DNA of 64,000 nt from the human T2T-CHM13v2.0 reference genome, Homo sapiens. The translations under genes and the position numbers were made by a program. The notes under the pieces were generated by a model, which was not told the origin of the DNA, did not search any database, and saw only the letters and a program-made list of their open reading frames with translations. The stretch lies in assembly GCF_009914755.1 (NCBI RefSeq), contig NC_060935.1; one strand, given 5' to 3'. This document shows, in pieces, positions 8,015 to 54,241 of the stretch (position 1 is its first letter; each line of letters starts with the position of its first letter).

Positions 8015-8570
<556 letters not shown>

Positions 8571-9215: not shown

Positions 9216-9358
9216 TCTCATTGAAACACAGAAATGTTATTGCTCCTGAAAGGTTCAATAATCACTCAGCAACTCACCTCTTCAGAGGACTGAATGTACA
9301 CAGAAGTCCTCTTCATCTCAACTACTGATTCTCTCTAACCTGCTTTACCTATTCAACC

Positions 9359-9416
9359 ATGAGGGTCTTGTTTTTTGTCTTTGGAGTCCTTTCCTTGATG
9401 TCCACAGTTCCTCCAA
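9359..9416 (+). CDS. DEFB131B: Beta-defensin 131B, coding exon 1 (signal peptide)
   Basis: MRVLFFVFGVLSLMSTVPP plus 1 nt, then a GT donor (aa|gtaagg) at 9417. A phase-1 signal-peptide exon is typical of beta-defensins. Confidence 0.93.
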
Positions 9417-10509: not shown

Positions 10510-12230
10510 TTATATTTTTATTGAGATAAAATTTACCATAATATTCATTGCCTTAAAGTGTTCTATTCAGTGGTTATCAAGTGTATTCTTAAAATTGTGC
10601 ACCCCTCACCATTATCTAATTCCAGAATATGTTTATCAGCGCAAGAAGAAATCTCTCCTCCTCCCAGTCCCTAGCAACCACTGATCTAATTTTTGTCTCT
10701 ATGTATATTCCTATTCTGGACATTTACTATGAACAGAATAATAAATATCTGATCCTTCATGTCTGCCTTCTTTCATTTAGCATAATGTTTTCAAGATTCA
10801 TCCATGTTGTGGCATAGATTCGTACTTCATTCCTTCATTCAGTGGTCATCAGTATATCCCACTTTAAGAATCCACTGATACTCACTAAATGGAACACTCT
10901 AAAGGAATGAATTTTATAGTAAATTCTATCTCAATAAAAATATAAAACACCAACATTCACGGAGGAAAAGTATAATTCTGTATAATTATATAAATGATGG
11001 AATCTTGAAATAAATTTTAAAATGTGCTCTGAGGTAACATGTGCCTCAGAAAAGATAAATAAGTCAATTGATAATCTAAATCTCAGGTATAAACCACAGT
11101 TTAATATGTATTTATTATAAAGTATTGGTGGATTTTAAAATTAATTTGGGAAAGTTAGATTGATTATTGGTGTTGGTAAAAAAAATTTCATCATATGAAT
11201 TATTTAGCATATGGTTGTTTATAACAGACTCTAATGATCCATTGTGTTTCTTTTATATCAGTTGTAATGTCTCCTGTTTTATTTCTGATTTTATTTATTT
11301 GGCATTCTCTCTTTTGTTCTTGGTTAGTCTAGCTAGCAGTTTATAAAGTCTGTTTATCTCTTCCAAAAGTCAACTTTTTGTTTCATTAATTCTTTGAATT
11401 TTTTAAATCTCGAATTCACTTAGTCCTGCTCTGATTTTTATTATTTCTTTCCTTCTCCTAAGTTTGGATTTCATTTTTTCTTGTTTTTCTTGTTCCTTGA
11501 GGTGCATAGTAGCTTGTTTATAATCTTACTATGTTCTTGCAGTAGGCATTTATTGCTGTAAAATTCTCTCTTAGCACTGTCTTTGTTGTATTCCATAGGC
11601 TTTGGTATGTTGTGTTTCCATTTGCATTTATTTCAAGAACATTTGTTATTTTCTTCTGAGTTTTTTCATTGACTCAATGGTTGTTCAGAAGCATGTTGTT
11701 TAATTTCCATGTTATCTGTATAGTTTCCAAAGTTCTTCCTAGTATTCATTTCTAGTTCTATTCTATTTTTGTCTAGAATATACTTGATATAATGTTGATT
11801 TTTCAAAATTTGTTGAAACTTGTTTTGTGTCTTAACATATGGTCTAGCCTGGAGAATGTTCTGTGTGATGAGGAGAAGAATGTGTACTCCACAGCTTTTG
11901 GATGAAATGTTGTGTAAATGTCTGTTAAGTCTATTTGTTCTGTGGTACAGATTAAATTTGATGATTATTTGTTAGCTTTCTACCTAGATGATCTGTTCAA
12001 TGCTGAAAGTGGGGTATTGAAGCCCTCAGTTATCATGATGTTGAGGTGTATCTCTCTCTTTAGCTCTAATGACATTTTTAATATATCTATTCCACTACTG
12101 GGTACATATATATACATATTTGGAATTTTTATATCCTCTTGCTGGATTGGCCCTTTTATCATTATATGATGGCCTTCTTTGTCTCTTTTTATGTTTTTTC
12201 ACTTAAAGTCAATTTTGTCCAATATAAATA
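10510..12230 (-). mobile_element. L1M fragments (3' UTR piece and ORF2 endonuclease region)
   Basis: Antisense ORF 11980-12162 MIKGPIQQEDI...GFNTPLSALNRSSR matches the L1 ORF2 endonuclease. Confidence 0.8.
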
Positions 12231-12235
12231 TAGAT

Positions 12236-12638
12236 GTATTAGGCCATTCTTGCATTGCTATAGGGTTATCATAATAAAGTACCACATAATGGGTGCCTTA
12301 AATAACAAAAGTTCATTTTCTCACAGTTCTGGAAGTTATAAGTCTAAGATCAAGACGTCAGCACATTTGGTTTCTCCTGAGGCCTGTCTTGGCTTGCAGC
12401 TGGTTGCCTTCTTGCCATGTCCTCTTATGGCATTTTTTTGTGCACATGAATTCCTGGTGTCTCTTCCTCTTCTAATAAGGACATCAGCCATATTGCACGA
12501 GGGCCATACCCTGGGAGTCTCATTTTAGCTTTATCAGTCCTTAAAAAAAAAAAATCTTCAAATATGATTACATTCTGAGATACTAAAGATTGGGACTTTA
12601 ACATACAAATTTTGGAGGAAAACTGGTTAGCCCATAAC
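12236..12638 (-). mobile_element. MaLR LTR (MST start fused to an MLT1-like body)
   Basis: tgtattaggccattcttgcattgctata followed by ttctcacagttctggaag...tctaagatcaag...ttagcccataaca. Confidence 0.7.
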
Positions 12639-12639
12639 A

Positions 12640-14600
12640 ATGAATTCATCAATAGACTGATATGATCAAGGAAAGAATCAGTGAGCTTAAAGAATTTTAA
12701 ATAGCAACTTCCAAAACTTAAAAGCAAAGAAAAAAGAATTAAAAAGAACAGAATATTTAATAAGTGTAGGCCAATTAGAAAAGGAAAAATATATGTGTAA
12801 TGAAGTATCAGGAGGAGGAGAAAGAAAGGAACAGAAGAAATATTTGAAGAAATTCTGACTGAGATTTTCCCAAAATTGAAAATAAACAAAATCTACATAT
12901 CTAGGAAGCTGAGAGAATACCAAGCAAGATAAATACAAAAAATTTAAACATAGGCATATTATATTGAAACTGCCAAAAATCAAAGACGAAAAGAAAATCT
13001 TAAAAGAAGCCAGGAGGGGAAAAAATCTTTATCTATGGACAACCAAGGATAAGAATTACATCAGACTTCTCTTAAACCACATAAGCAAAAAGAGAGGAAA
13101 GTGAAATATTTAAAATGTTAAAAAAAAAAAAAGAACACTATCTTAAAACTCTCTACTTAGCAAAATTATCTTTTTTTTTTAGACAGAGTCTCACTTTGTC
13201 ACCCAGGCTGGAGTGCAGTGGCAGTGACCTTGGCTCACTGCAGCCTCCGCTTCCTGGGTCCAAGCAATCTCGTGCCTCAGCCAGCCACCACCACGCCTGG
13301 CTAATTTTGTATTTTTAGTAGAGACTGGGTTTCACTAGTTTGGCCAGGCTGGTCTTGAACCCCTGACCCCAGGTGATCTGCCCGCCTTGGCCTCCCAAAG
13401 TGCCAGGATTAAAGGTGCAGGCCACCATGCCCAGCCTACCCTCTAAATTAAAGTAAAAATACATAATTTTCTTAGGTAACCAAAAATAGAGTTTGTCACC
13501 AGTAGTCCTACCTTACAATAAAAGTAAAAAGAAATTCTTCACTCATACTCAATGGTGAAAAACTAAAAGCTTTTCTTCTAAGATCAGGAACAAGGCAAAA
13601 GTGCCCCTTCTTGCCACATTTATTTAACATGATTCTAAAAGTTCTAGCAAGAACAATTAGGCAAGAAAAGGAAATAAATGGCATCCAAACTGTTGGGGGG
13701 TGGGAATGAGTAAAATTATCTATTTCCAAATGACATAATTTTTTTGTAAAAAACCCTAAACTTCACTCCCCCAAAATTATTAAAACTAATAACAAATTCA
13801 GTAAAGTTGCAGGATAGAAAATCAACCTACAAATACCAGTTGTGTTTCTATAGCACTAACAGCAAGCAACTGGAAAGCAAGTAAAGAAAATCCCATTCAT
13901 AATAGCAAGAAAAAGATAAGATATTTAAGAATAAACTTAACCAAAAGATGAAAGACTGGTACATTAAAAATTGCAGACATTCATGAAAGAAATTAAAGAA
14001 GACACAAATCAGTAGAAAGATATCCTATGTTCATGAATTGGAAGACATAATAATATTAAAATATCCATACTATTCAAAGCAATTTATAGATTATATACAA
14101 TCCCTATCAAAATCCTAATGGCACTCTTGACAGAAATAGAAAAAACAATTTTAAAATTCATATAAAACCACAAAGGACCCAGAATAGTCAAAACAATGAG
14201 CAAGAAAAACAAAGCTAGGGGCATCACATTTTCTAATTTCAAAATGTATTATAAAGATAGAGTAATCAAAACTGTGTGCTACTGGGATAAAGATAGACAT
14301 ATAGGCCACTGGAAGAGAATAGAGGGCCAAGAAATCAACTGACACTTATAAAGTCAACTGGCCTTCAACAAACATGCGAAGAATATATAATGGGGAAAAG
14401 ATGGTTTCTTCAATACGTGGTACTAAGAAAACTGAATATTCATATGCAAAAGAATAAAACTGGGCCTGTATCTTACACTACACACAAAAAGCAATTCAAA
14501 ATGAACTACACATTTAAACATAATTACCTGAGACTGTAAAACTTATAGAAGAAAACATAAGGAGAAACTTTCATGATGTTGGTCATGGCAAATATTTTAA
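12640..14600 (+). mobile_element. Internally deleted L1M (ORF1 then ORF2), with an antisense Alu at 13171-13437
   Basis: ORF1-like gaaatatttgaagaaatt...atcagacttctc, and ORF2-like aatggtgaaaaactaaaagcttttcttctaagatcaggaacaaggcaa. Confidence 0.8.
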
Positions 14601-15312
14601 CTTATAAATTGTAACAAAAGGATTTGGGAAGGATTGGTATGTTTAAAGGGAATATTTATGGGAGATTATGGGTTATAGGCTCCTGTCCATATCTCAGTAA
14701 CTTCCTCAGTAAAGGAGACATGGCCTTGAGCCCGAATACACTGGGAAGCTGGAACTAAGACTCAACTCCTTCTGACCCCTTCTCTCAATTAAGGATTCTT
14801 TTTTCTCATTTCACCAAGAACAGAGAAGCAACCAAAGATAGCTTTTCCACTTTTCCACCACCATATCTCTTCACATGGTTTTATCTTTATCCATAATCTG
14901 CCTTCTCTTCACTCTGTGATTCAAGGCCAACCCCTCCACTTACACTAGATTCCATCCCCAATGACTTTTTTAAGAATTTAACTCCAGAAATTAAACATTA
15001 TTTCCTGCATTATGAATCTCTACACCACCCCCAAGCTGGATAATTCATTTTAGGTAGAAATATGTGGTAATAGTTCTCATTTAAAATTCTGTACATTTCC
15101 AACTACTGCCTCATTTACTACTCTCTTTACAGAAGAAATCATCGTTTGTCTTTATTCAGCATCTCCACTTTTTCTCTTGCATTCTTTTGCTGTTGTTTTT
15201 GTTTTTCTGGGAAAGTTCTGTAATGCTTTTAATTTATTATAAAACATTTCAGACATTTAAACATAAAAAGTAAGTAATATTGTGTCATATAATTTGTCTT
15301 CTCTTTTTAAAG

Positions 15313-15467
15313 CCAGAAGCTTCACTTCTAATGATGAATGTCCTTCAGAATATTATCATTGCAGACTGAAGTGCAATGCTGATGAACATGCAATTAGATA
15401 CTGTGCTGACTTCAGCATCTGCTGCAAACTGAAGATCATTCAAATTGATGGACAAAAGAAGTGGTGA
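15313..15467 (+). CDS. DEFB131B: Beta-defensin 131B, coding exon 2 (mature peptide)
   Basis: Acceptor tcttctctttttaaag|cc, phase 1. Encodes (T)[50 protein letters not shown] with six-cysteine beta-defensin spacing. The spliced product is 70 aa. Confidence 0.95.
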
Positions 15468-15527
15468 AAATTCTAACTCCATCTTCTTCAGACTCCAGGA
15501 GAAAAAACATGTCTTAAACTCTCTTAT
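15345..15527 (-). CDS. XNDC1N: Candidate stop-containing exon of XNDC1N, antisense to DEFB131B exon 2
   Basis: Minus-strand acceptor ttcatag|ata (AG at 15529-15528), phase 0, matching the donor at 46976. Open for 60 codons [60 protein letters not shown], then TGA. The polypyrimidine tract is weak. Extra support is my recollection that annotated XNDC1N continues ...[14 protein letters not shown]. Confidence 0.7.
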
Positions 15528-15699
15528 CTATGAATAATTAACATGATAGATGAAAATTATTATAATTGCATGTTTAGATGGTCAGGTGAAAATGAATATA
15601 AATTTTATAAATGCTTACACTCTATTTTCATTTGTGCATTTTAACATTTACTCCCTTAATTTACATCCACAGCCACATTGTTGTTTCACCCATAGTACT

Positions 15700-16912: not shown

Positions 16913-16914
16913 TT

Positions 16915-29780: not shown

Positions 29781-30274
29781 GGCCATTCTATATGAAGTAA
29801 TATATATTTATAATTTTTAATATTTATATGTGGTATATTTTCCCATAATAAAAGATGAAAATTAAAGCAGTTGGATGTTTAAAAAGAAAAGAAAGAAGGG
29901 AAGAATACACACTAGCTTTCTCCTGATTAGAGGAAGAGCCCCAAATCTTCTATGGACACTCACTTTTCTCTTCTTCTTCTTGCATTATTATACGGACATC
30001 CTTAGAGGTTGGGGAACTTGGGTGACTTTGGCTAAGAAGGAGCTCTGTGCCTTGAGCCCCCCAGGCCACAGAATAGTAAATAGTCAGTCTGTGCCTCCAG
30101 CCCTGCAGTGTGGGGTTCCAGTCCTGTGGGCTCCACTCCCGTCACCTGTATCACCCTGTCTTCTTGCCAGCCTTGAAGACGGAGTCTGAGCCTCCATGGT
30201 GCACCACACAGGGAGGACAGTGGACCTGTTCTCCGTGGTCATGGCCCAGCAGAGGGGAAGGGCAGTTCAGTGAG

Positions 30275-31288
30275 TGTAGGGAAAAGAAAGAGATCAGACT
30301 CTTACTGTGTCTATGTAGAAAGGAAAGACATAAAAGACTCCATTTGGAGAAAGACCTGAACTTTCAACAATTGCTTTGCTGAGATGTTGTTAATGTGTAG
30401 ATTTGCCCCAGACACTTTGACCCAACCTGAAGCTCACAAAAACATGTGTTGTATGAAATCAAGGTTTAAGGGATCTAGGGCTGCGCAGGACGTGCCTTGT
30501 TAACAAGATGTTTCCAAGCAGTATACTTGGTAAAAGTCATCGCCATTCTCTATTCTCAATAAACCAGGGGCACGATACACTGTGGAAAGCCGCAGGGAGC
30601 CCTGCCCTTGAAAGCGGCATATTGTCCAAGTTTTCTCCCCATGTGATAGTCTGAAAAGTGGCCTCGTGGGAGGAGAAAGACCTGACCGTCGCCGAGCCCG
30701 ACACCCGTAAAGGGTCTGTGCTGAGGTGGATTAGTCAAAGAGGAAAGCCTCTTGCAGTTGAGAGAGAGGAAGGCCCCTGTCTCCTGCCTGCCCCTGGGAA
30801 ATGAATGTCTCGGTATAAAACCCGATTGTACATTTGTTCAATTCTGAGATGGGGGAAAAACCGCCCTATGGTGGGAGGCGAGACAAGTTTGCAGCAATGC
30901 TGCCTTGTTATTCTTTACTCCACTGAGATGTTTGGGTGGAGAGAAACCTAAATCTGGCTGATGTGCATGTCCAATCATAGTACCTTCCCTTGAACTTCAT
31001 TATGACATAGATTCTATTGCTCACATCTTCGTTGCTGACCTTCTCCTTATTATCACCCTGCCCTCCTACTACATTCGTTTTTGCTAAAATAATAAAAATA
31101 ATAATCAGTAAAAACTGAGGGAACTCAGAGGCCAGTGCCGGTGCAGATCCTTGGTATGCTGAGCGCCGGTCCCCTGGGCTCACTGTTGTTTCTCTATACT
31201 TTGTCTCTGTGTATTATTTCTTTCCTCAGTCTCTCATCCCACCCGACTAGACATACCCACAGCTGTGGAGGGGCAGGCCACCCCTTCA
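30275..31288 (+). mobile_element. Solo HERV-K(HML-2) LTR (LTR5A/LTR5B type)
   Basis: tgtagggaaaagaaagagatcagact...ggggcaggccaccccttca, 1014 bp, TG...CA ends. Perfect 6-bp TSD AGTGAG (30269-30274 and 31289-31294). gtataaaacc TATA-like box at ~30813. Confidence 0.93.
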
Positions 31289-31589
31289 AGTGAGTGCTGA
31301 GGGAGGGTCGGGAGCCTTGTTTGGTTCCCTTCTCCTCAGGACAAACAGGAGAGTGTGGTGGACAGATGGGAGGAGACCAATGTGCAAACTGTCCGCTCAG
31401 CAGACTGTGCAGTTTCTGTTCTTGGTTGTGCTGGGGGTCTCAGAAATCTTATTCAAAATTTTGCTCTCCTCCCCCACTGGTTGTCCTTTTCATAGACATC
31501 TCACTCATGATAGCAGGGAATCAGTCCCTCTAAACTATTCCCTAAGAACAACAAAAAGATTATGAAGGTGATGATGAGGATAAAGAGGA

Positions 31590-31830
31590 TGATGACAGAC
31601 ACCATGGCATCATGAACCCTTACTGAGGGCTTCCTAAAGGCCAGGCTCTGAGCTCTGTGCTCTATGCAGCTTGTTTCATTTCATCTGCGTAGTCTCCACT
31701 TTATTAGTGCACATTTCAGGATGATTTTACAGACTAGAAAAGGAGCAACGCCTTTTCATAGAACTCGTACTAGATCATGAGGTCAAAAAGGGTGAAGTCC
31801 AATTTGAACCAGTCAGTCTAAGTCCAGACA
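31590..31830. mobile_element. MIR fragment
   Basis: ttactgagggcttcc...ccaggctctgagct...attttacagactagaaa...atttgaaccagtcagtct. Confidence 0.55.
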
Positions 31831-32223
31831 CATGGCATTTGGCCAGTCCTCTCCCTGCAACCAACCTGCCCTCTCAAATCCTCGTCACTCAGGCGGATGC
31901 CCCTGCTCACTATGCCCTTCCCTTTCGGGGTTCCTTGTAGAACACAGCTAGACCAGTGGGTGCCACAATCACTGTGTCAAGTATGGAAAGGACAGCTGAG
32001 ATCACATCGAGGATTCCAGAAAGAATTGGCACAGGATCATTCGGGGCGCATCTCTCCCTTGCCCCTGTTCCTGGCTTTCTGTACAGCTCTTGACTTCCAC
32101 AAAGCAGTCATCAATTCGGAGTTTGGCTTCCATTCCTATTGAGGAAGCTGGAAAGCGTTTCAAAAATGCTCCTCCGATGTGCCTGTGGTTACGACCTCTG
32201 AGCTCTGCTTAAAGCTTTTGGAA

Positions 32224-32623
<400 letters not shown>

Positions 32624-33094
32624 CTACTTCTCTGTATGGCAAAGGGTGAGATATCCATCCTCTGAGACTCACCACTCTCATCTGACTTGATTTCCAGTTG
32701 ATCCGATGGAAGTGAGTGATGATTAAGCTGATCGTGGGTGCCCGCTGCGTGATCTCTAGGTGACGGATGCATAAAGTAAAGGCAAAATGAATTTTAGATA
32801 TATTCCTTAAGATTTTCAGCTTCAACTCCACACAATTCAACGGAAATATCCCCTGACCTGAAGTTCTGCTTTCCCTGCATTCCAGACAGGACATTTTGTT
32901 TTGTCCTTCTCTCAGTAAGGACTGAGTACTGTAAGAGGAACAAGTGAGTCTCTTTGTTTTCTGATTCCCCAGAGCCTATATCGTGCTTGGCACATAGGAG
33001 ACAGCAAACGTCAAATATATGTTAATGATTGAATTGACACTTCCTTGCTTCACCAAAATTGGCTGTCATCAGCGTGACTTTGACTTACTTGATT

Positions 33095-33396
<302 letters not shown>

Positions 33397-34075
33397 AAAC
33401 TTTCTGATGAAAACTCTAAGTCCACCTAAGCTAAGGACAGGAGTTAGAGCTTCCATGAATTTTAAAACAAGACCCACCGATTTGAGTAAGCAATTACTCT
33501 CTCGAAGGAGAAAAGTCCGAAAACACAATGATGAAATCACTAGGACCTAACTGGCATGTGGAACTATTTTCTGCTTATGAACTATCAACTTCCATTTCAT
33601 TTCCAGATGGCATGGTCTCAGCTGTTATACAGTGTTTACAAATGTTCTAAATCAAGGGAATTTGTATCAATCTCGTAGAATAAATAAAATATTTGAGTTC
33701 TTAATTTCCTTTAATTAGGATAACCTTTTTCTTAAAGTGAAGACAATGCTTTTATTACATCTTTTCCTTCGGAAAAGATAGGCTGTATTTTCTAGCAATT
33801 ACGAATTTGTTATATATGACGATCTGGTTCTTGGAACGTTCTTGAAGCTAGTGTCTCTAAGGCAGGTGTGTACAGCAAGACGTGAATAACACAGCAATCG
33901 ATGATGAAAGCATTATAAGACAATTGAGTTTGTCAGAACTACAAAATATTGCTGAGTGTGGATTGCTCTGAAATCTGAAAACATTACTTGTGAATTGCTT
34001 CTATCCAAAATGCAGACACAATGCTGGGTATTGGTTTACTTGTTTCCGATTTTTCAACCCTCTTTTCCAGGCAAA

Positions 34076-35027
34076 AGAGGGTTGTATCCAAACGATACAG
34101 ACCCACAGAGTCTAACAGATGTCTCTATATTCCTTCTCCTCGAACTCTCAGAGGATCCAGAACTGCAGCCGGTCGTCGCTGGGCTGTTCCTGTCCATGTG
34201 CCTGGTCACGGTGCTGGAGAACCTGCTCATCATCCTGGCCGTCAGCCCTGACTCCCACCTCCACACCCCATGTACTTCTTCCTCTCCAACCTGTCCTTGC
34301 CTGACATCGGTTTCACCTCCACACGGTCCCCAAGATGATTGTGGACATCCAGTCTCACAGCAGAGTCATCTCCTATGCAGGCTGCCTGACTCAGATGTCT
34401 CTCTTTGCCATTTTTGGAGGCAGGGAAGAGAGACATGCTCCTGAGTGTGATGGCCTACGACCAGTTTGTAGCCATCTGTCACCCTCCATATCGTTCAGCC
34501 ATCTTGAACCCGTGTTTCTGTGGCTTCCTAGATTTGTTGTCCTTGTTTTTTTTTTCTTTTTTTTTTTTCCCTCAGTCTTTTAGACTCTCAGCTGCACAAC
34601 TTGATTGCCTTACAAATGACCTGCTTCAAGGATGTGGAAATTCCTAATTTCTTCTGGGAACCTTCTGTGACACCTTCACCAGGAACATCAACATGTATTT
34701 CCCTGCTGCCGTATTTGGTTTTCTTCCCATCTCGGGGACCCTTTTCTCTTACTGTAAAATTGTTTCCTCCATTCTGAGGGTTTCATCATCAGGTGGGAAG
34801 TATAAACCTTCACCACCTGTGGGTCTCACCTGTCAGTTGTTTGCTGATTTTATGGAACAGGCGTTGGAGGGTACCTCGGTTCAGATGTGTCATCTTCCCC
34901 GAGAAAGCGTGCAGTGGCCTCAGTGATGTACACGGTGGTCACCCCCATGCTGAACCCCTTCATCTACAGCCTGAGAAACAGGGATATGAAAAGTGTCCTG
35001 CGGCGGCCGCACAGCAGCGCAGTCTAA
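34076..35027 (+). pseudogene. OR7E126P: Olfactory receptor family 7E pseudogene (probably OR7E126P)
   Basis: [52 protein letters not shown] spread over several frames. Poly-T tract at 34545-34568. Same TM6 stop (VVC*FYGT) as the first OR7E. The symbol is from positional recall. Confidence 0.85.
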
Positions 35028-35094
35028 TCTCAATATCTTCTTATCTGTTCCATTCCTTTTGTAGGATGGGTTAAAAAAGGCAGCAAGGTCAAAT

Positions 35095-38000
35095 AAGAAT
35101 GATATCACAGGGTGAACACCCATTGTGTCATTACGAGTAATACCTTCCTAGGATACAGAATATACTGTCACAGAGTACACACACATGGGGTACACCCACT
35201 GTGATATTAGAAGCAATATCTCCCTAAAGTATGATGAAAAATATCACAGGGTGTGCATACTGTGTGATATGAGGAGTCATATTTTCCCTGGATATCACGA
35301 CTCATATCAAGGGTGTACACACACCGGGTACACACACTGTGATATCAGGAGTTGCATCTCCCTAGGATATTATGAATAATATCACAGGGTATACACTATG
35401 TGTGAACATCCACTGTGACATTTGAAGTCATATCTCTCTATGAGATGACAAATAATATCAAAGTGTGTACACCCCTGTGACATATTAGGAGTAACATCCT
35501 TCTAGGGTATTGCAGATAACATCACAAGGTGCACAGCTTCTGTGACCTTTTGCGCACACTTTGTGCCATTCAAGGAAACATCTCCCTAGGATATTAAGAA
35601 TAATGACACAGGCGGTTGACACACATGGTGTACATCTCCTGCGCCATCAGGAGTAATATTCCCCTAGGATATTACGAATAATATCACAGCAGGTGTACAT
35701 ATATGGTGTTCACCCCATGTGACATTAGGAGGAACATGCCCCTAGGATGTTAAGAATAGTATCACAGGTGTTGAATACACATGATATACACCCTGGTGCC
35801 ATTGAAAGTAACATACCCCTAGGACATTACGAATAATATCACAGGGAGTACACCCCGTGTGACATTAGGAGTAACATCCCCCAAGGATATAACGAATAAT
35901 ATCAGGGGGTGCACATACATTGTGACCTTAGTGGTAACATCTCTTTAGGATATTACCAATAATATCACAGGTTGTCCACTGACCGTGATATTAGGAGTCC
36001 CATTTTCCTAGGATATTATGGATAATATCACAGGAGGTGTTCACACACAATGTGTACACCATGTGTGTACACTCAACGTGATATTTGAAGTCATATGTCC
36101 CTAGGATCTTACGAATATTATCAAAGGGTGTACACCCCATGTGACATTAAAAGTAACATCCCTTTTGGATATTCCGAATGCTATCACAGGGTGTGATATT
36201 AGGAGTGTGATATTAGGAGTAAGCTCTTCCTAGGATAACCCATGTGATATTAGGAGTAACCCCTTCCTAGGATATTACGAATAACATCACAGGGTGTACA
36301 CCCCTGTGACTTTAAAAGTAACACCCCCCCTAGAATATTACAATAATATAACAGGGTGTACAACCCCTGTGACATTACGGTAACATCTCCCTAGGATATT
36401 TCGAATGATGTCACTGGGGGCACACCCTCTGTGATATTAGCAGCAACATCTTTCTAGGAGATTACGAATGATATCACAAGGTGTACACTCACTCTGATAT
36501 TGGAAGGAATATCTCCCTAGGATATAAGCTATCACATCACAGAGTGTACACACATGGTGTACACCCACTGTGTTATTAGAAGCAATATCTCCCTATGATA
36601 TTATGAAAAATATCACAGGGTGTACCCTCTGTGGGATATTAGAAGTAATGTTTACCATGGATATTACAAATAATATCACAGGATGTACACACATGGGGTA
36701 CACCAACTGTGATATTAGGAGTTATATCTCCCTAAGATATTACAAATATTATCCCAGTGGGTGTAGCCCATGTATGTACACCCACTGTGATCATTAAAGT
36801 AATATCTCTCTATCAGATTGCAAATAATACCGAAGGCTGTACACCACCTGTGACATTAGGAGTAGCATCCCCCTACAATATTGGGAGCAATATCACACGG
36901 TGTACACCCCTGTAACATTAGGGGTAACATCCCCCCACAATATTACTAATAATATCACAAGGTGTACACGCATTGTGACATTAGTAGTAGTACCCAGCTA
37001 GCATATTTTCAATAATATCACAGAAGGAACACACCTGTGACATTAAGAGTGACATCCCCCTGGAGGAGTAAGAATATTATCACAGGGTGTACACCCCCTG
37101 TGATATTAGGAGAATCATCTCATCAGAATATTACGAATAATGTCACAGGGTGTTATCTTCTGTGACATTAGGAGTATAGACCCCTGGGAAATTATGAATA
37201 CTATCACAGGGTGTACACCCCTGTGACATTAGGAGTAGCATCCTTCTAGAATATCATGAATAATATCACAATGCCTACACCCCCTGCGTCATTAAGAGTA
37301 CAATTGCACTAGGATATTATGAAAGAGAACACAGGGAGAACACGCTGTGTGACATTAGAAGTCACATCCCCCGAGGATATAAGGAATAATATCAGAGAAT
37401 GTACATGCATTGGGACATCGGTAGTCACATCTCTTTAGGATAATAAGAACAATATCAAAGGGTGTACACGCATTGTGAAATTAGTAGTGAACTCCCGCTG
37501 GGATATTACGAATTTTATGACAGGGTCTACATGCCCTGTGACCTTAGTAGTCACGTTTTCCTAGAATATGACGAAGAATATTAAAAGGTGTACAGGACCT
37601 GTGATTTACGAGTAACATTTCTATAGAAGATTACACGTAATATCACTGTGTGTACACCCCGTGTGACGTTAGGAGTCACATCCCAAAAAACTATAACGAA
37701 AAATTTCACAAGGTGTGCAACATCTGTGGCATTAAAAGAAACATTTCCCTAGAATATGATGATAATATCACAGAGTGTACACCCTCGGTGATATGAGGAG
37801 TGATATCTTATAAGGGTAATAAGAGTAATTTGACAAGGTGTACAAACCCTGTGACATAAGGAGTGACATCCCTCCAGGATATTCCGAATCATACCAAAGG
37901 GAAACTACTCCGTGTGACAAAAAAATCAACCTCCCCTTAGGAGATTAAGAATAATGGCACAAGCTGTACACACATTGTGACATTATTATTAACGTCCCGC

Positions 38001-39035
38001 TAGGGTATTGCGAATAATATCAGAGTGTGTAGACACTTGTGACATCAGGATTCACGTTTCACCACATTATCACGAATAATATCACAGGGTGTATACCCCC
38101 GGGACTCAAACAGTGACACATTCCTAGAATATGGAAAATAATGTCCCAGGGTGTTAACCAAGTGTAGCAGTAGAGAAAACATAATACGAGAAACGGAGTA
38201 ATATCACCCCCTCTCCCCCACTGGATATTACGAGCCCCATCGCAGGGGGGTGAGGCGCCCCCCGCGATGCGGGGAGTAAGAGCCAGCCCCTCTTGCCCCC
38301 CTGGCTCTTAGGACCCCCATCGCAGGGGGGCGAGGAGCCCCCCACGATGCGGGGAGTAAGAGCCAGCCCCTCTTGCCCCCCCGGCTCTTAGGATCCGCGG
38401 TGGACTCACAGCCTGTTTAACATATTGTGAGTAATATCACCTCCCCCTCTGGAGATTTTGAACTGTTTCACAGACCGCTGTACACCCGTCTGTATTGGGA
38501 GTAATATCATCCTCTTCCTCTCTGAATATTAGGAACAGTATCACAGGGGTATTTCTACTCCCTGGGATACCAGGTGTCAGGTCGTCCTCTCCCACGTTGC
38601 AACTAGAAACTATATCAGTTGGGGACGTGTCCACTTTCTGTGATATTGAAAGCAATATTATCCTCTTCCCTCCAGGATCATGGGAACGATATCCTTGGGG
38701 GTGTCCACTTTCTGCCATATATGTAGTCATATCACCCCCTCCGCCTTGGAATATTTTTAAGGACCATCTCACACGGGGGTGTACACTTCCTGTGATGTTG
38801 GGAGTAATAGCATTCTCTTCTTCTGTGAATATTAGGAGCAAAATCACGGGTGGATGCACACTCAGTGCTATATTGTGAGTAACGTCATACTCCAACCACT
38901 GGAGATTTTATTCGGATCAATGTCACTGGCTGGTTGTACACCTACTGCGATATAGAATGTAATATCATGCTCTCTCCCTCCCTGGACATTACGAGCAATA
39001 TAACAGGTGGGTATACACCCACTGAGGTATTAGGG
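35095..39035. repeat. SATR2 array grading into SATR1 (GC-rich variant units at 38240-38395)
   Basis: Units gacattaggagtaacatcccctaggatattacgaataatatcacagggtgtacacccc. 38240-39035 is paralogous to ~15770-16575. Confidence 0.9.
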
Positions 39036-39370
39036 CGTAATATTAGTATGAATTATTCCTCATTTATTATTAACATGAATATGAATGACCGATATTAATA
39101 TTAATATTAAGAAATAATTGCTAATAAAAAGTTTTCAGATTATTAATATTAATAATTATTAGGAGCTAATATGACTGTTTTCTAATGAATAAGATCAATA
39201 TCAGTTATTAATATCAGGCATCATTAATCATTAATATAATCATGTATTGTTATCTTTAGTATAAGTATTTAATATTAATTATTATTATCGGTATTGATTT
39301 TAAAAATTATATTATGGGTTATTAAAATTGATAATTATTAGCGCCAATTAATAATTGAGATTATTAATTG
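39035..39370. repeat. AT-rich low-complexity segment (copy 2)
   Basis: Paralog of 16575-16912. Confidence 0.85.
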
Positions 39371-42300
39371 CAGTAAGTCGCATTGCGCCATTCCACTCCT
39401 CCCTCAACAGCTCGTTTACAACCCAAAACGGGGACACAAATGCCCCTGAGAGAGCAGCGATATACTGGGTTAGATGAGGATGGTCACGTGCTGGAGAGGC
39501 GTGTTTTTGGGTACCAGCCCTTCACCTGTGTCGACCTTCTCAACTGGGAAAACAATACAACGCCCCATACCGAAAAGCCACAAGCCCTAATTGATTTGCT
39601 CCAAGCTGTTATCCAGACCCACAACCCCACCTGTGCTGATTGGCACCAGTTGCTCATGTTGCTCTTTAACAGCGAAGAAAGGCGGAGAGTCCTCAAGCAG
39701 CAACTAAGTGGCTAGAGGAACATGCACCAGCTGATTATCAAAACGCCCAAGAGTATGGAAGGGCCCAGTTGCCAGGAACCGACCCTCAGTTGGACCCACA
39801 TGAAAGAGGGGATATGCAAAGGCTAAAGCGAGACAGAGAAGCTCTCCTGGAAGGATTAATGAGGGGAGCTCAGAAGGCCACAAACGTTAACAAGCTCTCT
39901 GAGGTCATTCAGGGTAAAGAAGAAAGTCCAGCACAATTCTACCAGAGACTGTGTGAGGTCTATCGTATGTATACTCCCTGTGATCCCGATAGCCCTGAAA
40001 ATCAGCACATGATTCACATGGCTTTAGTCCGTCAAAGCCCAGAAGACATGAGAAGAAAACTGCAGAAACAGGCTGGGCTTGCAGGGATGAATCCATCCCA
40101 ATTACTAGAAATAGCTAGCCAGGTGTTTGTAAACAGGGATGCAGTAAGCCGTAAGGAAAACGGCAAAGAGAATGGAGGTCAGGCCCGGCGATATGCCGAC
40201 CTGTTTGTCAGCTGCAGCAATCAGAGGGGCCCCCACAAAGAGGCAAGGGAAGGGAGGCCCTGGGAAAGAAACTCAGCTTGGCTGTCAGAGTTTGCAGCGT
40301 AACCAGTGTGCTGATTGTAAAGAAATAGGACAGTGGAAGAACAAATGCCCTCAGCTCAAAAGAAAACAAGGTGACTCAGAGCAGGAGGCCCTGGACAAGG
40401 AGGAAGGGGCCCTGCTCAACCTGGCAGAAGGGTTCTTGGACTGAGGGAGACCCGGCTCAAGCGTTCCCAAAGAGCCTCTGGTCAGAATGATAGTCAGGGG
40501 TGGAGATATTGACTTTCTTGTAGATAGCGGTGCTGAACATTCACTAGTAACCGCCCTTGTTGCCCCCTTATCCAAAAAGAATATTGACGTCATCGGAGCC
40601 ACGGGGGTTTCAGCAAAGCAAGCTTTCTGCTTGTCTCAGACTTGTACTGTAGGAGGACATAAAGTCATTCATCAGTTTTGGTACATGCCTGACTGTCCCT
40701 TGATCTTTTTAGGAAGGGACTTGCTCAGCAAGCTGAGAGCCACTATCTCTTTGACAGAGCATGGCTCTTTGCTGGTAAAGTGACCCGGAATGGGAGTCAT
40801 TATGACCCTTATGGTTCTCCGAGAGGAGGAATGGAGACTTTTCTTAACTGAGCCGGGCCAAGAGAGAAGACCAGCTCTGGCTAAGCGGTGGCCAAGAGTA
40901 CGGGCAGAAGACAACTCTCCGGGATTGGCCAGTGAAGACGGGCCCAGCCGGTGAGGCAAAAACAGGACCCGGTCCCCAGAGAAGCCCTTCAAGGTATCCA
41001 GGTCCGTCTCAAGCACCTAAGAACTTTTGGAATTATTGTTCCTTGTCAGTCTCCATGGAACACTCCCCTCCTGCCTGTTCCCAAGCCACGGACCAAGGAC
41101 TACCAGCCGGTTCAGGATTTGCGCTTGCTTCATCAAGCTAAACTGACTTTACATCCAACAGTAAATAACCCATCCACATTGTTGGGGTTGCTGCCAGCTG
41201 AGGACAGCTGGTTCACCTGCTTGGACCTGAAAGACGTTTTCTTTCCTATCAGATTAGCCCCTGAGAGGCAGAAGCTGTTTGCCTTTCAGTGGGAAGATCC
41301 GGAGTCAGGTGTCACTACTCAGTACACTTGGACCGGGTTTCCCCAAGGGTTCAAGAACTCCCCCACCATCTTCGGGGAGGCGTGGGCTCGAGACCTCCAG
41401 AAGTTTCCCAGGAGAGACCTAGGCTGCGTGTTGCTCCAGTAGGTTGAGGACCTTCTGCTGGGACACCCCACGGCATTCGGGTGTGCCAAGGGAACAGATG
41501 CCCTACACCGGCACCTGGAGGACTGTGGGTAGAAGGTGTCCAAGAAGAAAGCTCAGATCTGCCGACAGCAGGTACGTTACCTGGGATTTACTATCCAACA
41601 GGGGTCGGAACACAGCCCGGGGTCAGAACGAAAGCAGGTCATTTGCCATCTAGGGGAGCCTAAGAGCAGAATGCAGGGGAGAATTCTTAGGAGCTGTGGG
41701 GTTTTGTAGACTGTGGATCCCAAACTTTGCAGTATTAGCCAAGCCTTTCTATGAGGTCACCAAGGGGACAGGGACCGGGAACCTTTGGAATGCGGATCCC
41801 AACAACAGCAAGGCTTTCATGAGTTAAAGGAAAAACTTCTGGCATCCCCAGCCCTGGGGCTACCTGATCTGACAAAGCCTATTCCATCGTATGTAACAGA
41901 GAGAGAAAAGATGGCAGCTGGACTTTGAACCCAAACTGTGGGGCCCAGGCCGAGGCCAGTGGCCTACATCTCTCAACAACTGGACGGGGTTTCTAAAGGA
42001 TGGCCCCCCTGTTGGAGGGCCTTGGCAGCAACTGCCCTGCAAGTACAAGAAGCAAATAAGTTGACTGTTGGGCAAAACCTGAACATAAAGGCCTCCCGTG
42101 CTGTGGTGACTTTAATGAATACTAAAGGACATCATTGGCTAACGAATGCCAGACTCACCAAGTACCAGACTTTGCTCTGTGAAAATCCCCGTATAACCAT
42201 TGAAGTTTGTAACAGCCTACACCCCGCCACCTTGCTCCTGGTATCAGAGCCCTGTCGAGCCTGATTGTGTAGAAGTGTTGGACTCAATTCACTCTAGCAG

Positions 42301-43226
42301 ACCTGACCTCCGGGACCAGCCTTGGCCATCAGGAGACTGGGAACTATATGTGGATGGGAGCAGCTTCTTCAACCCCCAAGGAGAGAGAGGTGCAGGGTAT
42401 GCAGTGATAACCCTGGACACTGTTGTTGAAGCCACATCGTTGCCCCAGGCCACTTCAGGCCAGAAAGCTGAACTCATTGCTTTCATTGGGGCCTTAGAAC
42501 TCAGTGAGGGTGAGACTGTCAACATTTACACTGATTCTCGGTATGTCTTTTTAACCCTTCAAGTGCATGGAGCGTGATAGAAAGAAAAGGGCCTATTGAA
42601 CTCTGGGGGAAAAGGCACAAAATATCAACAGGAAATCTTGCAATGATTAGAAACAGTATGGAAACCCCACAAGGTGGCAGTTATGCATTGCAGGGGACAC
42701 CAGCGAGCTTCCATCTTGCTGGGTTTGGGGAATTCCCGCGCTGACTCAGAGGCTCCAAAAGCAGCATCTGCCCCCTTCTGGGCATCAGTGCTCCCTCAAG
42801 CACCTGATCTTGGACCTACTTCTTCTAAAGAAGAAAAGGACTTTCTGCAGGTAGAGGGAAGGACAATTGATGGAGGAAGGATGGATTCGGTTAGCAGATG
42901 GGAGAGTAACTGTGCCACAGCTGCTAGGAACTGCAGTTGTACTGGCTGTGCAAGAAACCACCCATCGAGGTCAGGAGTCACTGGAAAAGTTGTTAGGCTG
43001 GTATTTCTACATCTCACCTTTGTCAGCCCTTGCCAAAACGGTGAGGCAGCGGTGTGTTACCTGCCGCCAGCATGATGCGAGGCAAGGTCCAGCCGTTCCG
43101 CCCGGCATACGAGCTTATGGAGCAGCCCCCTTTGAAGGTCTCCAAGTGGACTTCACAGAGATGCCAAAGTGTGGAGGTAAAAAGTATGTACTAGTTCTTG
43201 GGCGTACCTACTCTGGGTGGGTGGAG
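39370..43226 (+). mobile_element. LTR-less HERV-E-like gag-pro-pol segment (copy 2, defective, truncated within integrase)
   Basis: Same motifs as copy 1 (ORFs 39769, 40172, 40487, 40951, 42200, 42867). Ends after TYSGWVE. Confidence 0.9.
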
Positions 43227-43229
43227 ATC

Positions 43230-44300
43230 TGGGTCTTCCTCCCCAAACGTGGATGTTAGCAACGAGATCACAGAAGGGGTGTAGACACCCTGAGACATTG
43301 GAAGTAATATGATCCTCTCCCCACCTGGATACTGGGAAAGATACCACAGCGCGGGTATACGTTTCCTACGTTGTTGCGAGTAATATCATTCTTTTCCTTT
43401 CTGGATATTAGGGAGAATATCACAGGGGTGCTGTGCAATTACTTTGACATTGGGAGTAACATCATCCTCTATTTTCCTGGATATTGGGCACAAAAACACA
43501 AAAGGGTGAACAACCCCTGCGATATTTGGAGTAATATTATCCTCTCCCCTCACGATTATTAAGAACAATATCGTAGGGGTGGGGGATGAACACCCCCTTT
43601 CATGTTTGATATCATCCTCTTTCCCCCTGGATATTAGGAACAATATCAGGAAGGGATGTACAGACCCTGCGACCTTTGCTGTCATATAATTGTCTCTCCC
43701 CTAGATATTAGGAAAAAATGTCACTGGGGATGTGAACAGCCCTGCGATATTGAGAGTAGTATCATCCTCTCCCCCTTGCATATTGGGAACAACATCACAA
43801 GTGGGGTGTACTCCCCCTTGCATATTGGGAACAACATCACAAGTGGGGTGTACTGCCTCTGTGATATTGGGAGTGAAATTTTCCTCTCTTCCCCTGCACA
43901 TTAGGAAGGGTATCAGAGGGGTTGGTGTACATTCCCTGCGATATTCAACGTAACCTTATCCTCTCTCTCCCAGGGTATTCAGAACAATATTATAGGAGGG
44001 GTGTACACCCTCTGCGATATTGAGAGTCATATCATCCTCTTTCGCTCTGGATATTAGGAACAATATCACAGGGTTTTGTACCCCACCTGCGATATTGGGA
44101 GTCATATCATCCTCTCTCCCTGTGGATATTAGGAAGAGTATCACAGGGGTGTGGAAACCCCCTGCGGTCCTGGGAGTAATATCAGCCTCTCTCCCTCTGA
44201 AAATAGGAAGATTTTCACAGGGGTGTGTTAACCCCCTGCGATATTGGGAGTAAGATCATCCTCTCCACCCAGGAAAAGACTAACAAGGTCACGGGGGGTG
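43230..44300. repeat. SATR1 satellite block
   Basis: Paralogous to 22370-22655 followed by 21585-22335. Confidence 0.9.
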
Positions 44301-46975: not shown

Positions 46976-47154
46976 CTTGTTCAGCACAGAGCTCAGAAGG
47001 GCTGAGGGACCCACCACAGAGTCATCTAAGGAGTCCAGAGAAGAACACACCCGTAGAAAGGCCAGGCCAAAGGACTGATGACGCGTGAAGGGTCGGGAGC
47101 AGGTCAGGCGAAGTCGATCCCATAACTCTCCTGAGGCTGGAGCCAGGAAATCAA
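46976..47154 (-). CDS. XNDC1N: XNDC1N coding exon 4 (end of the XRCC1 N-terminal-like domain)
   Basis: Acceptor tttccttgag|tt and donor aag|gtatgt. 179 nt encoding (V)DFLAPASGELWDRLRLTCSRPFTRHQSFGLAFLRVCSSLDSLDDSVVGPSALLSSVLNK. Confidence 0.92.
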
Positions 47155-48522: not shown

Positions 48523-48678
48523 CATCTTTAAACATGCGGACCCCGGAGCGGTTCTTCCCCTGCTTTGAATCAGTTAGAGACATTAGCGTGGTTGCAGGGA
48601 GCAGGGTTATGAAAGGTCTGTCCAGGGGCCAGGAAGAATGGCCCACATCAATTTGCAGGAACGCACAGCCACAGTTAC
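48523..48678 (-). CDS. XNDC1N: XNDC1N coding exon 3
   Basis: Acceptor tgtccccag|gt and donor gatg|gtaaag. 156 nt, phase 1-1, encoding (G)NCGCAFLQIDVGHSSWPLDRPFITLLPATTLMSLTDSKQGKNRSGVRMFKD. Confidence 0.92.
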
Positions 48679-49786: not shown

Positions 49787-49928
49787 CCACATCAATGTAG
49801 CCAGTGGGCACTGCCCTCTCCAGCTGTAGTTCTACTTTCAATTGCCCACTCTTGTCCTGAGGGCAGCCGAGCCAAGGTCTCCTTGGACTATCTGGGTTTA
49901 GCAAGTTCTCTACAGGATACTTGGGATC
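49787..49928 (-). CDS. XNDC1N: XNDC1N coding exon 2
   Basis: Acceptor ctcttacttag|gat and donor tgg|gtgagt. 142 nt encoding DPKYPVENLLNPDSPRRPWLGCPQDKSGQLKVELQLERAVPTGYIDV plus 1 nt. Confidence 0.92.
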
Positions 49929-54196: not shown

Positions 54197-54241
54197 CTGA
54201 GAAGAAAATGATACCACATGGCTGATCTTCACAGGAGCCAT
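54197..54241 (-). CDS. XNDC1N: XNDC1N first coding exon (exon ~54197-54255)
   Basis: Strong Kozak gcccaccATGG, [15 protein letters not shown], donor cag|gtatat. Acceptor gaaacag| at 54257-54256 implies a non-coding exon further upstream. Confidence 0.92.

What the first reader, a model, noticed from the sequence alone, without database searches (positions are those of the whole stretch)
15345..15467. Codon-in-register dual-strand coding over 123 nt of DEFB131B
DEFB131B codons and the antisense XNDC1N codons share the same triplet boundaries for 41 codons. Each frame's TGA stop is the other's Ser TCA: 15345-15347 is the Ser of CPSEY, and 15465-15467 reads TCA in antisense EFSP. Five of the six defensin cysteines lie in the overlap. 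Opposite-strand CDS overlap is rare in mammals. It would also make a broadly active promoter generate a natural antisense transcript to a defensin mRNA (inference), possibly also to near-identical DEFB131 paralogs in trans.
Basis: partly seen in the sequence, partly recalled or inferred. Interest (0 to 1): 0.75.

Follow-up and report, generated by a model that had tools for sequence, protein, structure and literature searches.

The report
Broken gene's tail overlaps a defensin
The last 60 codons of the truncated human gene XNDC1N do run antisense and codon-for-codon through the beta-defensin gene DEFB131B, but this looks like an accident of a chromosome inversion that broke the gene, not a designed two-way code.

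Summary
The geometry is confirmed. DEFB131B exon 2 (+, frame from 15315) and the last XNDC1N coding part (-, 15527 to 15345) share codon boundaries over 41 codons. Five of the six cysteines lie in the overlap.

It is not more than chance. Only 2 Leu and 1 Ser codons could have closed the antisense frame. In 14 of 25 unique beta-defensin exon-2 loci of this genome, the same in-register antisense frame is open for 60 codons or more, and the median is 60. All four DEFB131 copies (chr11, chr4, chr8 twice) keep the same 60-codon frame and the AG. All 7 variable sites change the antisense residue.

XNDC1N is exons 1-5 of XNDC1/XNDR. The gene is split in human. Its 3' exons lie 68 Mb away, inverted, at chr11:3.66 Mb. 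The substitute last exon lies wholly inside a 96%-identical duplicon and has a weak acceptor. The 60-residue tail replaces about 225 native residues. It has no family and no homologue in any annotated protein.

A regulatory antisense RNA role remains untested. Interest is low.

The parts
15345..15467 (.). 41-codon stretch where the DEFB131B (+) and XNDC1N (-) reading frames share triplet boundaries
   Evidence: Codon-by-codon table; translations.
15313..15467 (+). DEFB131B exon 2. It encodes the mature six-cysteine beta-defensin and ends in TGA.
   Evidence: Pfam PF13841, E 2e-08, 35 bits against a cut-off of 22.2. AG acceptor at 15311-15312.
9359..9416 (+). DEFB131B exon 1 (signal peptide, 19 codons plus 1 nt, GT donor)
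15345..15527 (-). Coding part of the substitute terminal exon of XNDC1N: 60 codons plus TGA. 20 codons are antisense to the DEFB131B 3'UTR side and 40 are antisense to its CDS.
   Evidence: the stop-to-stop ORF equals exactly this span. No Pfam family. No annotated protein homologue.
15528..15529 (-). AG acceptor of the terminal exon, embedded in a TAG. The polypyrimidine tract is weak: 13 of 20 pyrimidines, against 17-19 of 20 at the four native acceptors.
   Evidence: Present in all 4 paralogous copies.
11610..15527 (-). Whole XNDC1N terminal exon (3918 nt). It lies entirely inside a duplicon shared at 96% with chr4:9.46 Mb and chr8:7.68 and 7.73 Mb. AATAAA is at 11627-11632 (-), 17 nt before the end, within an interspersed repeat.
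46976..47154 (-). XNDC1N exon 5, the last native exon. It ends in ...SSVLNK and has a GT donor. In intact orthologues the native exon 6 follows here.
48523..48678 (-). XNDC1N exon 4 (XRCC1_N domain, profile positions 59-114)
49787..49928 (-). XNDC1N exon 3 (XRCC1_N domain, profile positions 14-64)
54197..54241 (-). Start of the XNDC1N CDS in exon 2 (ATG, 15 codons)
59254..59483 (-). XNDC1N exon 1. Its start lies 452 bp from the RNF121 start (59935, +), head to head. The region is GC-rich with CpG o/e up to 0.92.
   Evidence: annotation supplied with the finding.
38207..44300 (.). Last block of multicopy duplicated sequence before the unique DNA that carries XNDC1N exons 5-1. The duplicated/unique boundary is near 44300, 2.7 kb from exon 5.
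30004..38389 (.). Stretch with an inverted 95% copy at chr11:3432846-3441249, on the short arm near the other half of the broken gene

Best explanation
The overlap is a real feature of the annotation but an incidental one.

XNDC1N is the 5' relic (exons 1-5, 174 residues, a complete XRCC1_N domain) of the vertebrate gene XNDC1/XNDR. In the human lineage the gene was cut in intron 5 by an inverted rearrangement between 11q13.4 and 11p15.4. The native exons 6-10 now lie 68 Mb away in the opposite orientation.

Transcription still starts at the promoter region that lies head to head with RNF121 (inferred). With no native 3' exons, it runs into the adjoining block of segmental duplications. One mRNA form joins the exon-5 donor (46976) to a weak cryptic AG at 15528-15529, 31 kb downstream. 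It ends at an AATAAA inside an interspersed repeat at 11610.

That acceptor lies antisense to the DEFB131B 3'UTR side, 60 nt beyond the defensin's stop. The ribosome would simply read on in phase 0 until the first stop, 60 codons later, inside the antisense of the defensin CDS. The frame is open because in-register antisense stops need a sense TTA, CTA or TCA, and the defensin offers only three codons at risk.

The stop is in the last exon, so the mRNA would escape nonsense-mediated decay and is annotated as coding (inference from the standard rule). The 60-residue tail is an unselected, rather hydrophobic by-product. If it is made at all, it most likely marks the protein for quality-control degradation (inferred).
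For: Shown here:
1. Split gene. An intact orthologue (P0014, 399 aa) maps with residues 12-183 at chr11:71,842,949-71,845,940 (-), which is window exons 3-5. Residues 169-399 map at chr11:3,655,354-3,660,282 (+). Frankenberg et al. 2011 (PMC3170594, passages read) state that in human and chimpanzee exons 1-5 lie about 68 Mbp from exons 6-10, while orangutan and other primates are intact.
2. After ...SSVLNK, intact orthologues (siamang, snub-nosed monkey, grey seal) continue with about 225 conserved residues. The human tail is unrelated to these.
3. The terminal exon lies wholly in a duplicon collinear at 96% with chr4 and chr8. Unique DNA starts only near 44300.
4. All 4 of 4 copies of the duplicon keep the 60-codon antisense frame, its stop and the AG.
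5. 7 of 7 variable sites in the 183 nt change the antisense residue.
6. Chance. P(open) is 0.37 for the CDS part. The UTR part was open in 2706 of 20000 shuffles. 6-8% of all AG sites in the window have tails of 60 or more codons. 14 of 25 unique beta-defensin exon-2 loci have in-register antisense ORFs of 60 or more codons, median 60; this is 11 of 22 without the DEFB131 copies.
7. The tail has no Pfam family. Its only database hit among 17 candidates is P0126, an unnamed 136-aa straight read of genomic DNA.
8. The gorilla model P0009 has a different, Alu-like tail after the same exon 5.
9. The acceptor is weak: 13 of 20 pyrimidines against 17-19 of 20.
10. The tail is hydrophobic. Mean Kyte-Doolittle is 0.67 (1.09 over the last 30 residues) against -0.15 for the native part. 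This is the feature that Kesner et al. (bioRxiv 10.1101/2022.07.20.500724, abstract read) link to BAG6/proteasome clearance.
11. XNDC1N is treated as a 'missing protein', meaning no accepted protein-level evidence. Its antibody staining was discordant with RNA (PMC10775140, passages read).
12. The retained domain carries 6 human-only replacements in 157 residues at positions where five catarrhine models agree. This fits relaxed constraint.
Against: RefSeq gives this transcript an NM_ accession and marks it 'selected', so curators judged it a real coding mRNA. Frankenberg et al. thought exons 2-5 'may still be functional'. The ORF is intact and the stop lies in the last exon.

The overlap region is less diverged between copies (4 of 183 differences, 97.8%) than the surrounding 3.3 kb (about 96%). 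Constraint on the defensin explains this most simply, but it does not exclude constraint on the other strand.

The comparison of only four paralogues has little power; 7 of 7 non-synonymous is not significantly above the roughly three in four expected. Gene conversion between copies could mimic shared ancestry of the open frame. I had no chimpanzee or bonobo DNA, no RNA-seq, no ribosome profiling and no proteomics. The beta-defensin baseline loci are paralogues and so are not independent.
Confidence: 0.8

Rival explanations
1. Regulatory natural antisense transcript. Whatever its coding status, the XNDC1N terminal exon and the read-through lncRNAs from the same promoter are transcribed through DEFB131B on the opposite strand. 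They could lower or shape DEFB131B expression in cis, by transcriptional interference or RNA duplex formation, and possibly act on DEFB131A and the chr8 copies in trans.
For: By the annotation, the terminal exon 11610-15527 (-) contains the full complement of exon 2. The read-through gene spans the whole defensin gene. Complementarity to the paralogues' exon 2 is 152, 152 and 150 of 155. XNDR is widely expressed in tammar and platypus (PMC3170594, abstract and passages), and the XNDC1N start lies head to head with RNF121, 452 bp away. A precedent exists in the TR-alpha2/Rev-erb-alpha overlap (PMC4569393, passages read).
Against: No expression data of any kind were available here. Co-expression of XNDC1N and DEFB131B in the same cells is unknown. 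The arrangement arose from a rearrangement and is recent, not a conserved design. The papers found by my searches for 'DEFB131' with 'antisense' (4 papers), 'DEFB131B' (4) and 'XNDC1N' (3) do not, by title and abstract, address it.
Confidence: 0.12
2. True dual coding, with a young chimeric protein. The XRCC1_N domain fused to the 60-residue antisense-derived tail would be a functional hominine-specific protein, for example one anchored to membranes by its hydrophobic end. The 123 nt would then be under selection on both strands.
For: The 234-codon ORF is intact with a complete XRCC1_N domain. The stop is in the last exon. The tail is hydrophobic at its end, and the Kesner et al. abstract notes that such tails can also lead to membrane targeting. 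The overlap is slightly better conserved between copies than its flanks. Antibody staining has been reported in ovary (PMC10775140).
Against: The frame and the AG predate the junction (4 of 4 copies). 7 of 7 variable sites are non-synonymous for the tail. No annotated protein of another species carries the tail, and the gorilla model has another tail. The retained domain itself shows 6 human-only changes at otherwise fixed positions. The protein is classed as 'missing' and its staining was discordant with RNA. The loss of about 225 native residues removed two Cys-x-x-Cys ... His ... Cys motifs (read from P0014).
Confidence: 0.06
3. Annotation-level artefact. The 46976-to-15527 junction is a rare or aberrant splice, and most transcripts from this promoter are the non-coding read-through forms. 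In that case the 'coding' overlap exists mainly on paper.
For: The acceptor is weak (13 of 20 pyrimidines). Three read-through lncRNA forms are annotated from the same promoter and skip this exon (annotation supplied with the finding). The gorilla model uses a different terminal exon.
Against: The transcript has a curated NM_ accession and is the 'selected' one. It has a canonical AG and AATAAA. I could not see the underlying cDNA or RNA-seq support.
Confidence: 0.1

Closest known systems
TR-alpha2 (THRA) / Rev-erb-alpha (NR1D1) bidirectional coding sequence
   Same: The layout matches. An alternative last exon of one gene is spliced at a 3' splice site that lies antisense to the 3'UTR of the other gene, next to its stop codon. 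Its reading frame then continues antisense into the other gene's last coding exon (67 codons there, 41 here) (PMC4569393, passages read).
   Different: That overlap is nearly invariant across eutherian mammals, has a regulated splice element (G30) and yields a known protein isoform. Here the junction is recent and limited to human and chimpanzee. The antisense frame is shared by paralogues that have no partner gene. No constraint on the tail is seen, and the protein is undetected.
[quoted passage not shown]
   Same: XNDC1N is exons 1-5 of this gene. The XRCC1_N domain is present. The split and the 68 Mb distance are reproduced here and published (PMC3170594).
   Different: The paper does not mention, in the passages I read, what the truncated transcript ends in. 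The substitute terminal exon antisense to DEFB131B is not described there.
Chance antisense ORFs over coding sequence (models of antisense ORF emergence)
   Same: In-register ('frame 0') antisense stops arise only from sense CTA, TTA and TCA. The frame's openness is therefore set by Leu/Ser codon usage (PMC11266595, passages read). That is exactly the situation here.
   Different: That study concerns yeast and Drosophila, and stand-alone antisense ORFs with their own start. Here the antisense ORF is entered by splicing from an older gene.
Noncoding-derived hydrophobic C-terminal tails cleared by BAG6 and the proteasome
   Same: The tail derives from sequence never selected for coding in that frame. 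It is hydrophobic, above all in its last 30 residues (Kesner et al. abstract).
   Different: This is a resemblance only. No degradation assay exists for this tail, and I did not apply the paper's scoring method.

Membership tests
Functional bidirectional (dual-strand) coding sequence, TR-alpha2/Rev-erb-alpha type | Two annotated CDSs on opposite strands share nucleotides | tested here: met
   41 codons in register, 15345-15467.
Functional bidirectional (dual-strand) coding sequence, TR-alpha2/Rev-erb-alpha type | The second frame is conserved or constrained beyond what the first frame imposes | tested here: not met
   7 of 7 variable sites among 4 copies change the antisense residue. The frame is equally open where no XNDC1N exists. 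No annotated protein of another species carries the tail, and the gorilla model has a different tail. Power is low, with only 4 paralogues and no orthologue DNA.
Functional bidirectional (dual-strand) coding sequence, TR-alpha2/Rev-erb-alpha type | An open antisense frame longer than expected by chance | tested here: not met
   P is 0.37 for the CDS part. The median in-register antisense ORF of 25 unique beta-defensin exon-2 loci is 60 codons, the same as here.
Functional bidirectional (dual-strand) coding sequence, TR-alpha2/Rev-erb-alpha type | Both proteins are made | not testable with these tools
   No Ribo-seq or proteomics were available. XNDC1N is listed among 'missing proteins' (PMC10775140).
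Beta-defensin (Pfam PF13841) | Six-cysteine domain in exon 2 after a signal-peptide exon | tested here: met
   PF13841 E 2e-08, profile positions 1-30 of 30. Exon 1 encodes a hydrophobic 19-residue leader.
XNDC1/XNDR (full-length, about 400 aa) | N-terminal XRCC1_N domain | tested here: met
   PF01834 matches exons 3 and 4. The domain spans residues 1-150 of the intact orthologue, and human retains 174 native residues.
XNDC1/XNDR (full-length, about 400 aa) | Conserved C-terminal half (exons 6-10) contiguous with the N-terminal exons | tested here: not met
   The matching exons lie at chr11:3.655-3.660 Mb on the other strand. The human tail is unrelated to them.
cis natural antisense transcript pair | Mature transcripts from opposite strands overlap in exons | tested here: met
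   Met by annotation only: the terminal exon 11610-15527 (-) contains exon 15313-15467 (+). Splice and poly(A) signals are present.
cis natural antisense transcript pair | Co-expression and an effect of one transcript on the other | not testable with these tools
   No expression data. Literature searches found nothing on it.

The most novel reading that the evidence does not exclude
After the 11q13.4/11p15.4 inversion cut XNDC1, the surviving 5' half captured an exon antisense to a beta-defensin. This would have created a protein specific to human, chimpanzee and perhaps gorilla: a DNA-repair-type XRCC1_N domain with a hydrophobic, defensin-antisense-encoded tail that sends it to membranes or to rapid turnover. 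The same mRNA would act as a natural antisense RNA against DEFB131B and, in trans, its 97-98% identical paralogues. It would be a datable case of a gene fragment gaining both a new coding end and a regulatory target in one rearrangement.
Probability: 0.07. Interest if true: 0.55.

Novelty: new member of a known kind. Interest (0 to 1): 0.2.

Why it matters
As it stands, the locus is a clean worked example of how an annotated 'dual-coding' overlap can arise without selection. A rearrangement truncates a gene, its transcript picks up a cryptic last exon in duplicated DNA, and the frame stays open because the opposite strand's codon choice happens to avoid three codons.

This is useful as a caution for genome scans: in-register antisense frames over beta-defensin exon 2 are open for 60 codons in about half the family. 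It also serves as a datable case of exon capture at an inversion breakpoint.

It would matter more if the tail were shown to be translated, or if the antisense RNA were shown to control DEFB131 expression. Nothing here points that way.

Tried and rejected
- Search with the 60-residue tail for longer proteins: 1 hit among 17 candidates. The hit, P0126, turned out to be a straight read of chr8-type genomic DNA with TGA read as Trp. It is not a gene product, so I rejected it as evidence of conservation.
- A 20-kb self-search of window 1-20000 was swamped by a multicopy 6-kb element and did not show the chr4/chr8 duplicon. I repeated it with 8600-15700.
- The global alignment of the chr8b locus to chr11 gave 82.6% because of a structural difference. 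I do not use that figure.
- I considered whether this in-register antisense frame is generally the most open one. The model paper says this depends on codon usage and that its 'frame 1' is favoured on base composition alone. I therefore replaced the general claim with the locus-specific count and the defensin-family baseline.
- Human codon-usage figures would raise P(open) to about 0.6, but these are recalled, not computed. I report only the uniform-synonymous 0.37.
- I did not fold the tail or predict a complex, because no claim here needs it.
- Orthologue DNA from apes is not held by these tools, so no dN/dS could be computed.

Full report
**1. The observation**

The plus strand from 15315 to 15467 translates to the exon-2 peptide of a beta-defensin and ends in TGA. 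It matches Pfam Defensin_beta_2 over the whole 30-position profile (E 2e-08). The minus strand from 15527 down to 15345 gives 60 residues and TGA.

The codon table shows that the two frames use the same triplet boundaries through 41 codons (15345-15467).
- The TCA at 15345 is the defensin's Ser and the antisense TGA.
- The TGA at 15465 is the defensin's stop and antisense Ser 21.
- Five of the six Cys codons fall in the overlap.
- The AG at 15528-15529 (minus) is part of a TAG, so the stop-to-stop antisense ORF is exactly the annotated coding part.
- The whole annotated XNDC1N model is consistent: GT/AG at all introns, 705 coding nt, 234 residues, no internal stop, and AATAAA 17 nt before the 3' end.

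The TGA/TCA reciprocity follows automatically from being in register.

**2. Is it more than chance?**

In register, an antisense stop needs a sense TTA, CTA or TCA (also stated in PMC11266595, passages read). Between the two stops the defensin has 39 sense codons. Only 2 Leu and 1 Ser among them could have been such codons.
- With uniform synonymous choice the frame stays open with P = 0.37.
- The 20 codons on the 3'UTR side were open in 2706 of 20000 shuffles.
- Across the window, 261 of 4275 minus-strand and 382 of 4522 plus-strand AG dinucleotides are followed by 60 or more open codons.
- The other two antisense frames over exon 2 have 3 and 5 stops.

As an empirical baseline I took all 30 PF13841 matches in this genome. 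After dropping 5 exact duplicates, I measured the in-register antisense ORF spanning the sense stop. It is 60 or more codons in 14 of 25 loci, with a median of 60. Setting aside the three unique DEFB131 copies, it is 11 of 22. These loci are paralogues and not independent. Still, DEFB131B is the median case of its family.

**3.

The exon-2 region has four copies in this genome: chr11 (this one), chr4:9.47 Mb, chr8:7.69 Mb and chr8:7.74 Mb. The copies are 95-98% identical over 311 nt. The three full-length copies of window 8600-15700 (chr11, chr4, chr8:7.68 Mb) are collinear over all 7.1 kb at 96%, and the chr8:7.73 Mb copy over the last 5.3 kb.

All four keep the 60-codon antisense frame, the same stop and the AG. 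The frame and the acceptor therefore belong to the duplicon and predate its meeting with XNDC1N.

Among the four copies, 7 sites vary within the 183 nt. All 7 change the antisense residue. Of the 3 that lie in the defensin CDS, 2 change the defensin and 1 is silent. The two chr11-specific bases (15441, 15449) both alter the tail. There is no sign of constraint on the antisense protein, though the power is low.

**4. What XNDC1N is**

Pfam XRCC1_N matches window exons 49787-49928 and 48523-48678. A search with the exon-5 peptide found about 160 mammalian proteins, most of about 400 residues or fused to TRPC2.

In siamang, snub-nosed monkey and grey seal, the residues after ...SSVLNK (or its counterpart in the seal) continue into about 225 conserved residues. 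These include two Cys-x-x-Cys ... His ... Cys motifs. They resemble ubiquitin-binding zinc fingers by my recollection; Pfam gave no match at E 0.01 or better.

Mapping the 399-residue monkey protein onto this genome gives two places:
- Residues 12-183 lie at chr11:71.843-71.846 Mb on the minus strand.
- Residues 169-399 lie at chr11:3.655-3.660 Mb on the plus strand.

The two halves are 68.2 Mb apart and inverted. This reproduces Frankenberg et al. 2011 (PMC3170594, abstract and passages read). They report that XNDR exons 1-5 and 6-10 are about 68 Mbp apart in human and chimpanzee but contiguous in orangutan and other primates.

Mohajeri et al. 2016 (PMC5088589, one passage read) place inversion-associated core duplicons at the breakpoints of an 11q13.4/11p15.4 evolutionary inversion. 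In the window, 30004-38389 has an inverted 95% copy at chr11:3.43 Mb. Multicopy duplicated sequence extends to about 44300, which is 2.7 kb from exon 5.

**5. Mechanism (steps 2-5 are inferred)**

1. Exons 1-5 sit in unique DNA head to head with RNF121, with starts 452 bp apart.
2. With the native 3' exons gone, transcripts run into the duplication block.
3. One form uses the AG at 15528-15529. Its upstream tract has 13 of 20 pyrimidines, against 17-19 of 20 for the four native acceptors.
4. That form ends at 11610 within an interspersed repeat. Window 11198-12233 matches 35 or more places at 72-76%.
5. Translation in phase 0 then reads 20 codons antisense to the defensin's 3'UTR side and 40 codons antisense to its CDS, until the TCA/TGA at 15345.

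The tail has no Pfam family. Its only database hit (1 among 17 candidates) is an unnamed 136-residue straight read of chr8-type genomic DNA with TGA read as Trp. The gorilla model P0009 follows the same exon 5 with a different, Alu-like tail whose best match is window 27071-27157.

The tail is hydrophobic. Mean Kyte-Doolittle is 0.67, and 1.09 for the last 30 residues, against -0.15 for the native 174 residues. By the abstract of Kesner et al., this is typical of noncoding-derived tails that BAG6 hands to the proteasome.

XNDC1N is handled as a 'missing protein', and its antibody staining disagreed with single-cell RNA (PMC10775140, passages read).

The retained domain itself shows 6 human-only replacements in 157 residues at positions where five catarrhine models agree. 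Four of these positions are invariant in all ten mammals compared. The gorilla model shows 3 such replacements. This fits decay after truncation.

**6. Rivals**

- An RNA-level antisense role is the most serious rival. The mRNA contains the full complement of DEFB131B exon 2, and it is 150-152 of 155 complementary to the paralogues. I had no expression data.
- A truly functional chimeric protein is not excluded, but the evidence in sections 3 and 5 argues against it.
- The junction might also be a minor splice, since read-through lncRNAs skip it.

**7. Comparison with what is known**

The layout resembles the TR-alpha2/Rev-erb-alpha bidirectional coding sequence, which has 67 codons and a splice site antisense to the partner's 3'UTR next to its stop (PMC4569393, passages read). 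That overlap is nearly invariant in eutherians and is regulated. This one fails the conservation and excess-over-chance tests.

The split of XNDC1 is published. The capture of a terminal exon antisense to DEFB131B is not mentioned in the passages I read. It was also not turned up by searches for 'XNDC1N' (3 papers), 'DEFB131B' (4 papers) and 'DEFB131' with 'antisense' (4 papers). Of these, I read passages of only one (PMC10775140); the rest I judged from titles and abstract starts.

**8. Verdict**

It is best filed as a new, probably non-functional member of a known kind, namely a truncated gene capturing a cryptic terminal exon and so creating a nominal antisense CDS overlap. Interest is 0.2.

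Noticed in passing
window 49788-49928, 48524-48676, 46976-47152 (minus): The retained XRCC1_N-domain exons of human XNDC1N carry 6 human-only amino-acid states in 157 positions where five catarrhine models agree. Four of these positions are invariant in all ten mammals compared. The gorilla model has 3 such states. This suggests relaxed constraint after the gene was cut.
   Followed up: partly
30 PF13841 loci of the genome (L017-L046): Across beta-defensin exon 2 in general, the in-register antisense frame spanning the stop codon is long. It is 60 or more codons in 14 of 25 unique loci and reaches up to 117 codons. Open antisense frames are a family-wide by-product of composition and codon choice.
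   Followed up: yes
window 15705-~21700 and 38207-44300: Two copies of a roughly 6-kb element. It has at least 13 further copies at 88-94% on chr3, 4, 7, 8, 9, 10, 11 and 14. It begins with an 80-nt tandem repeat (15705-15913, 2.6 copies). It is probably part of the OR7E-type duplicons, but I did not name it with any tool.
   Followed up: partly
window 30004-38389: An inverted 95% copy lies at chr11:3432846-3441249 on the short arm, about 214 kb from the displaced XNDC1 exons 6-10. This is consistent with duplications at both inversion breakpoints.
   Followed up: partly
literature (PMC5088589 vs PMC3170594): Mohajeri et al. write that the 11q13.4/11p15.4 inversion is 'within the orangutan lineage'. 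However, the intact gene in siamang, monkeys and non-primates, and in orangutan according to Frankenberg et al., implies that the broken, inverted state is the derived one on the human/chimpanzee side. Their supplement was not read.
   Followed up: no
protein P0126: A 136-residue 'protein' from an unnamed metagenome-type source is a straight read of the antisense strand of a chr8-type DEFB131 copy, with TGA translated as Trp. Primate DNA in that collection was evidently gene-called under another genetic code.
   Followed up: partly
window 27071-27157 (minus): This is the best match (83%) to the Alu-like C-terminal tail of the gorilla XNDC1N isoform X2 model. In the gorilla annotation, a different cryptic exon in the same duplicated intron region serves as the last coding exon.
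   Followed up: partly
window 11198-12233; poly(A) signal 11627-11632 (minus): The XNDC1N mRNA ends inside an interspersed repeat with at least 35 copies at 72-76% identity. From memory the sequence around the end looks like LINE-1 in sense orientation; this was not tested.
   Followed up: no
chr11:3655354-3660282 (L010, L012, L015, L016): The displaced XNDC1 exons 6-10 still match the monkey protein at 66-95%. There is one in-frame TAA in the stretch matching residues 258-293.
   Followed up: no
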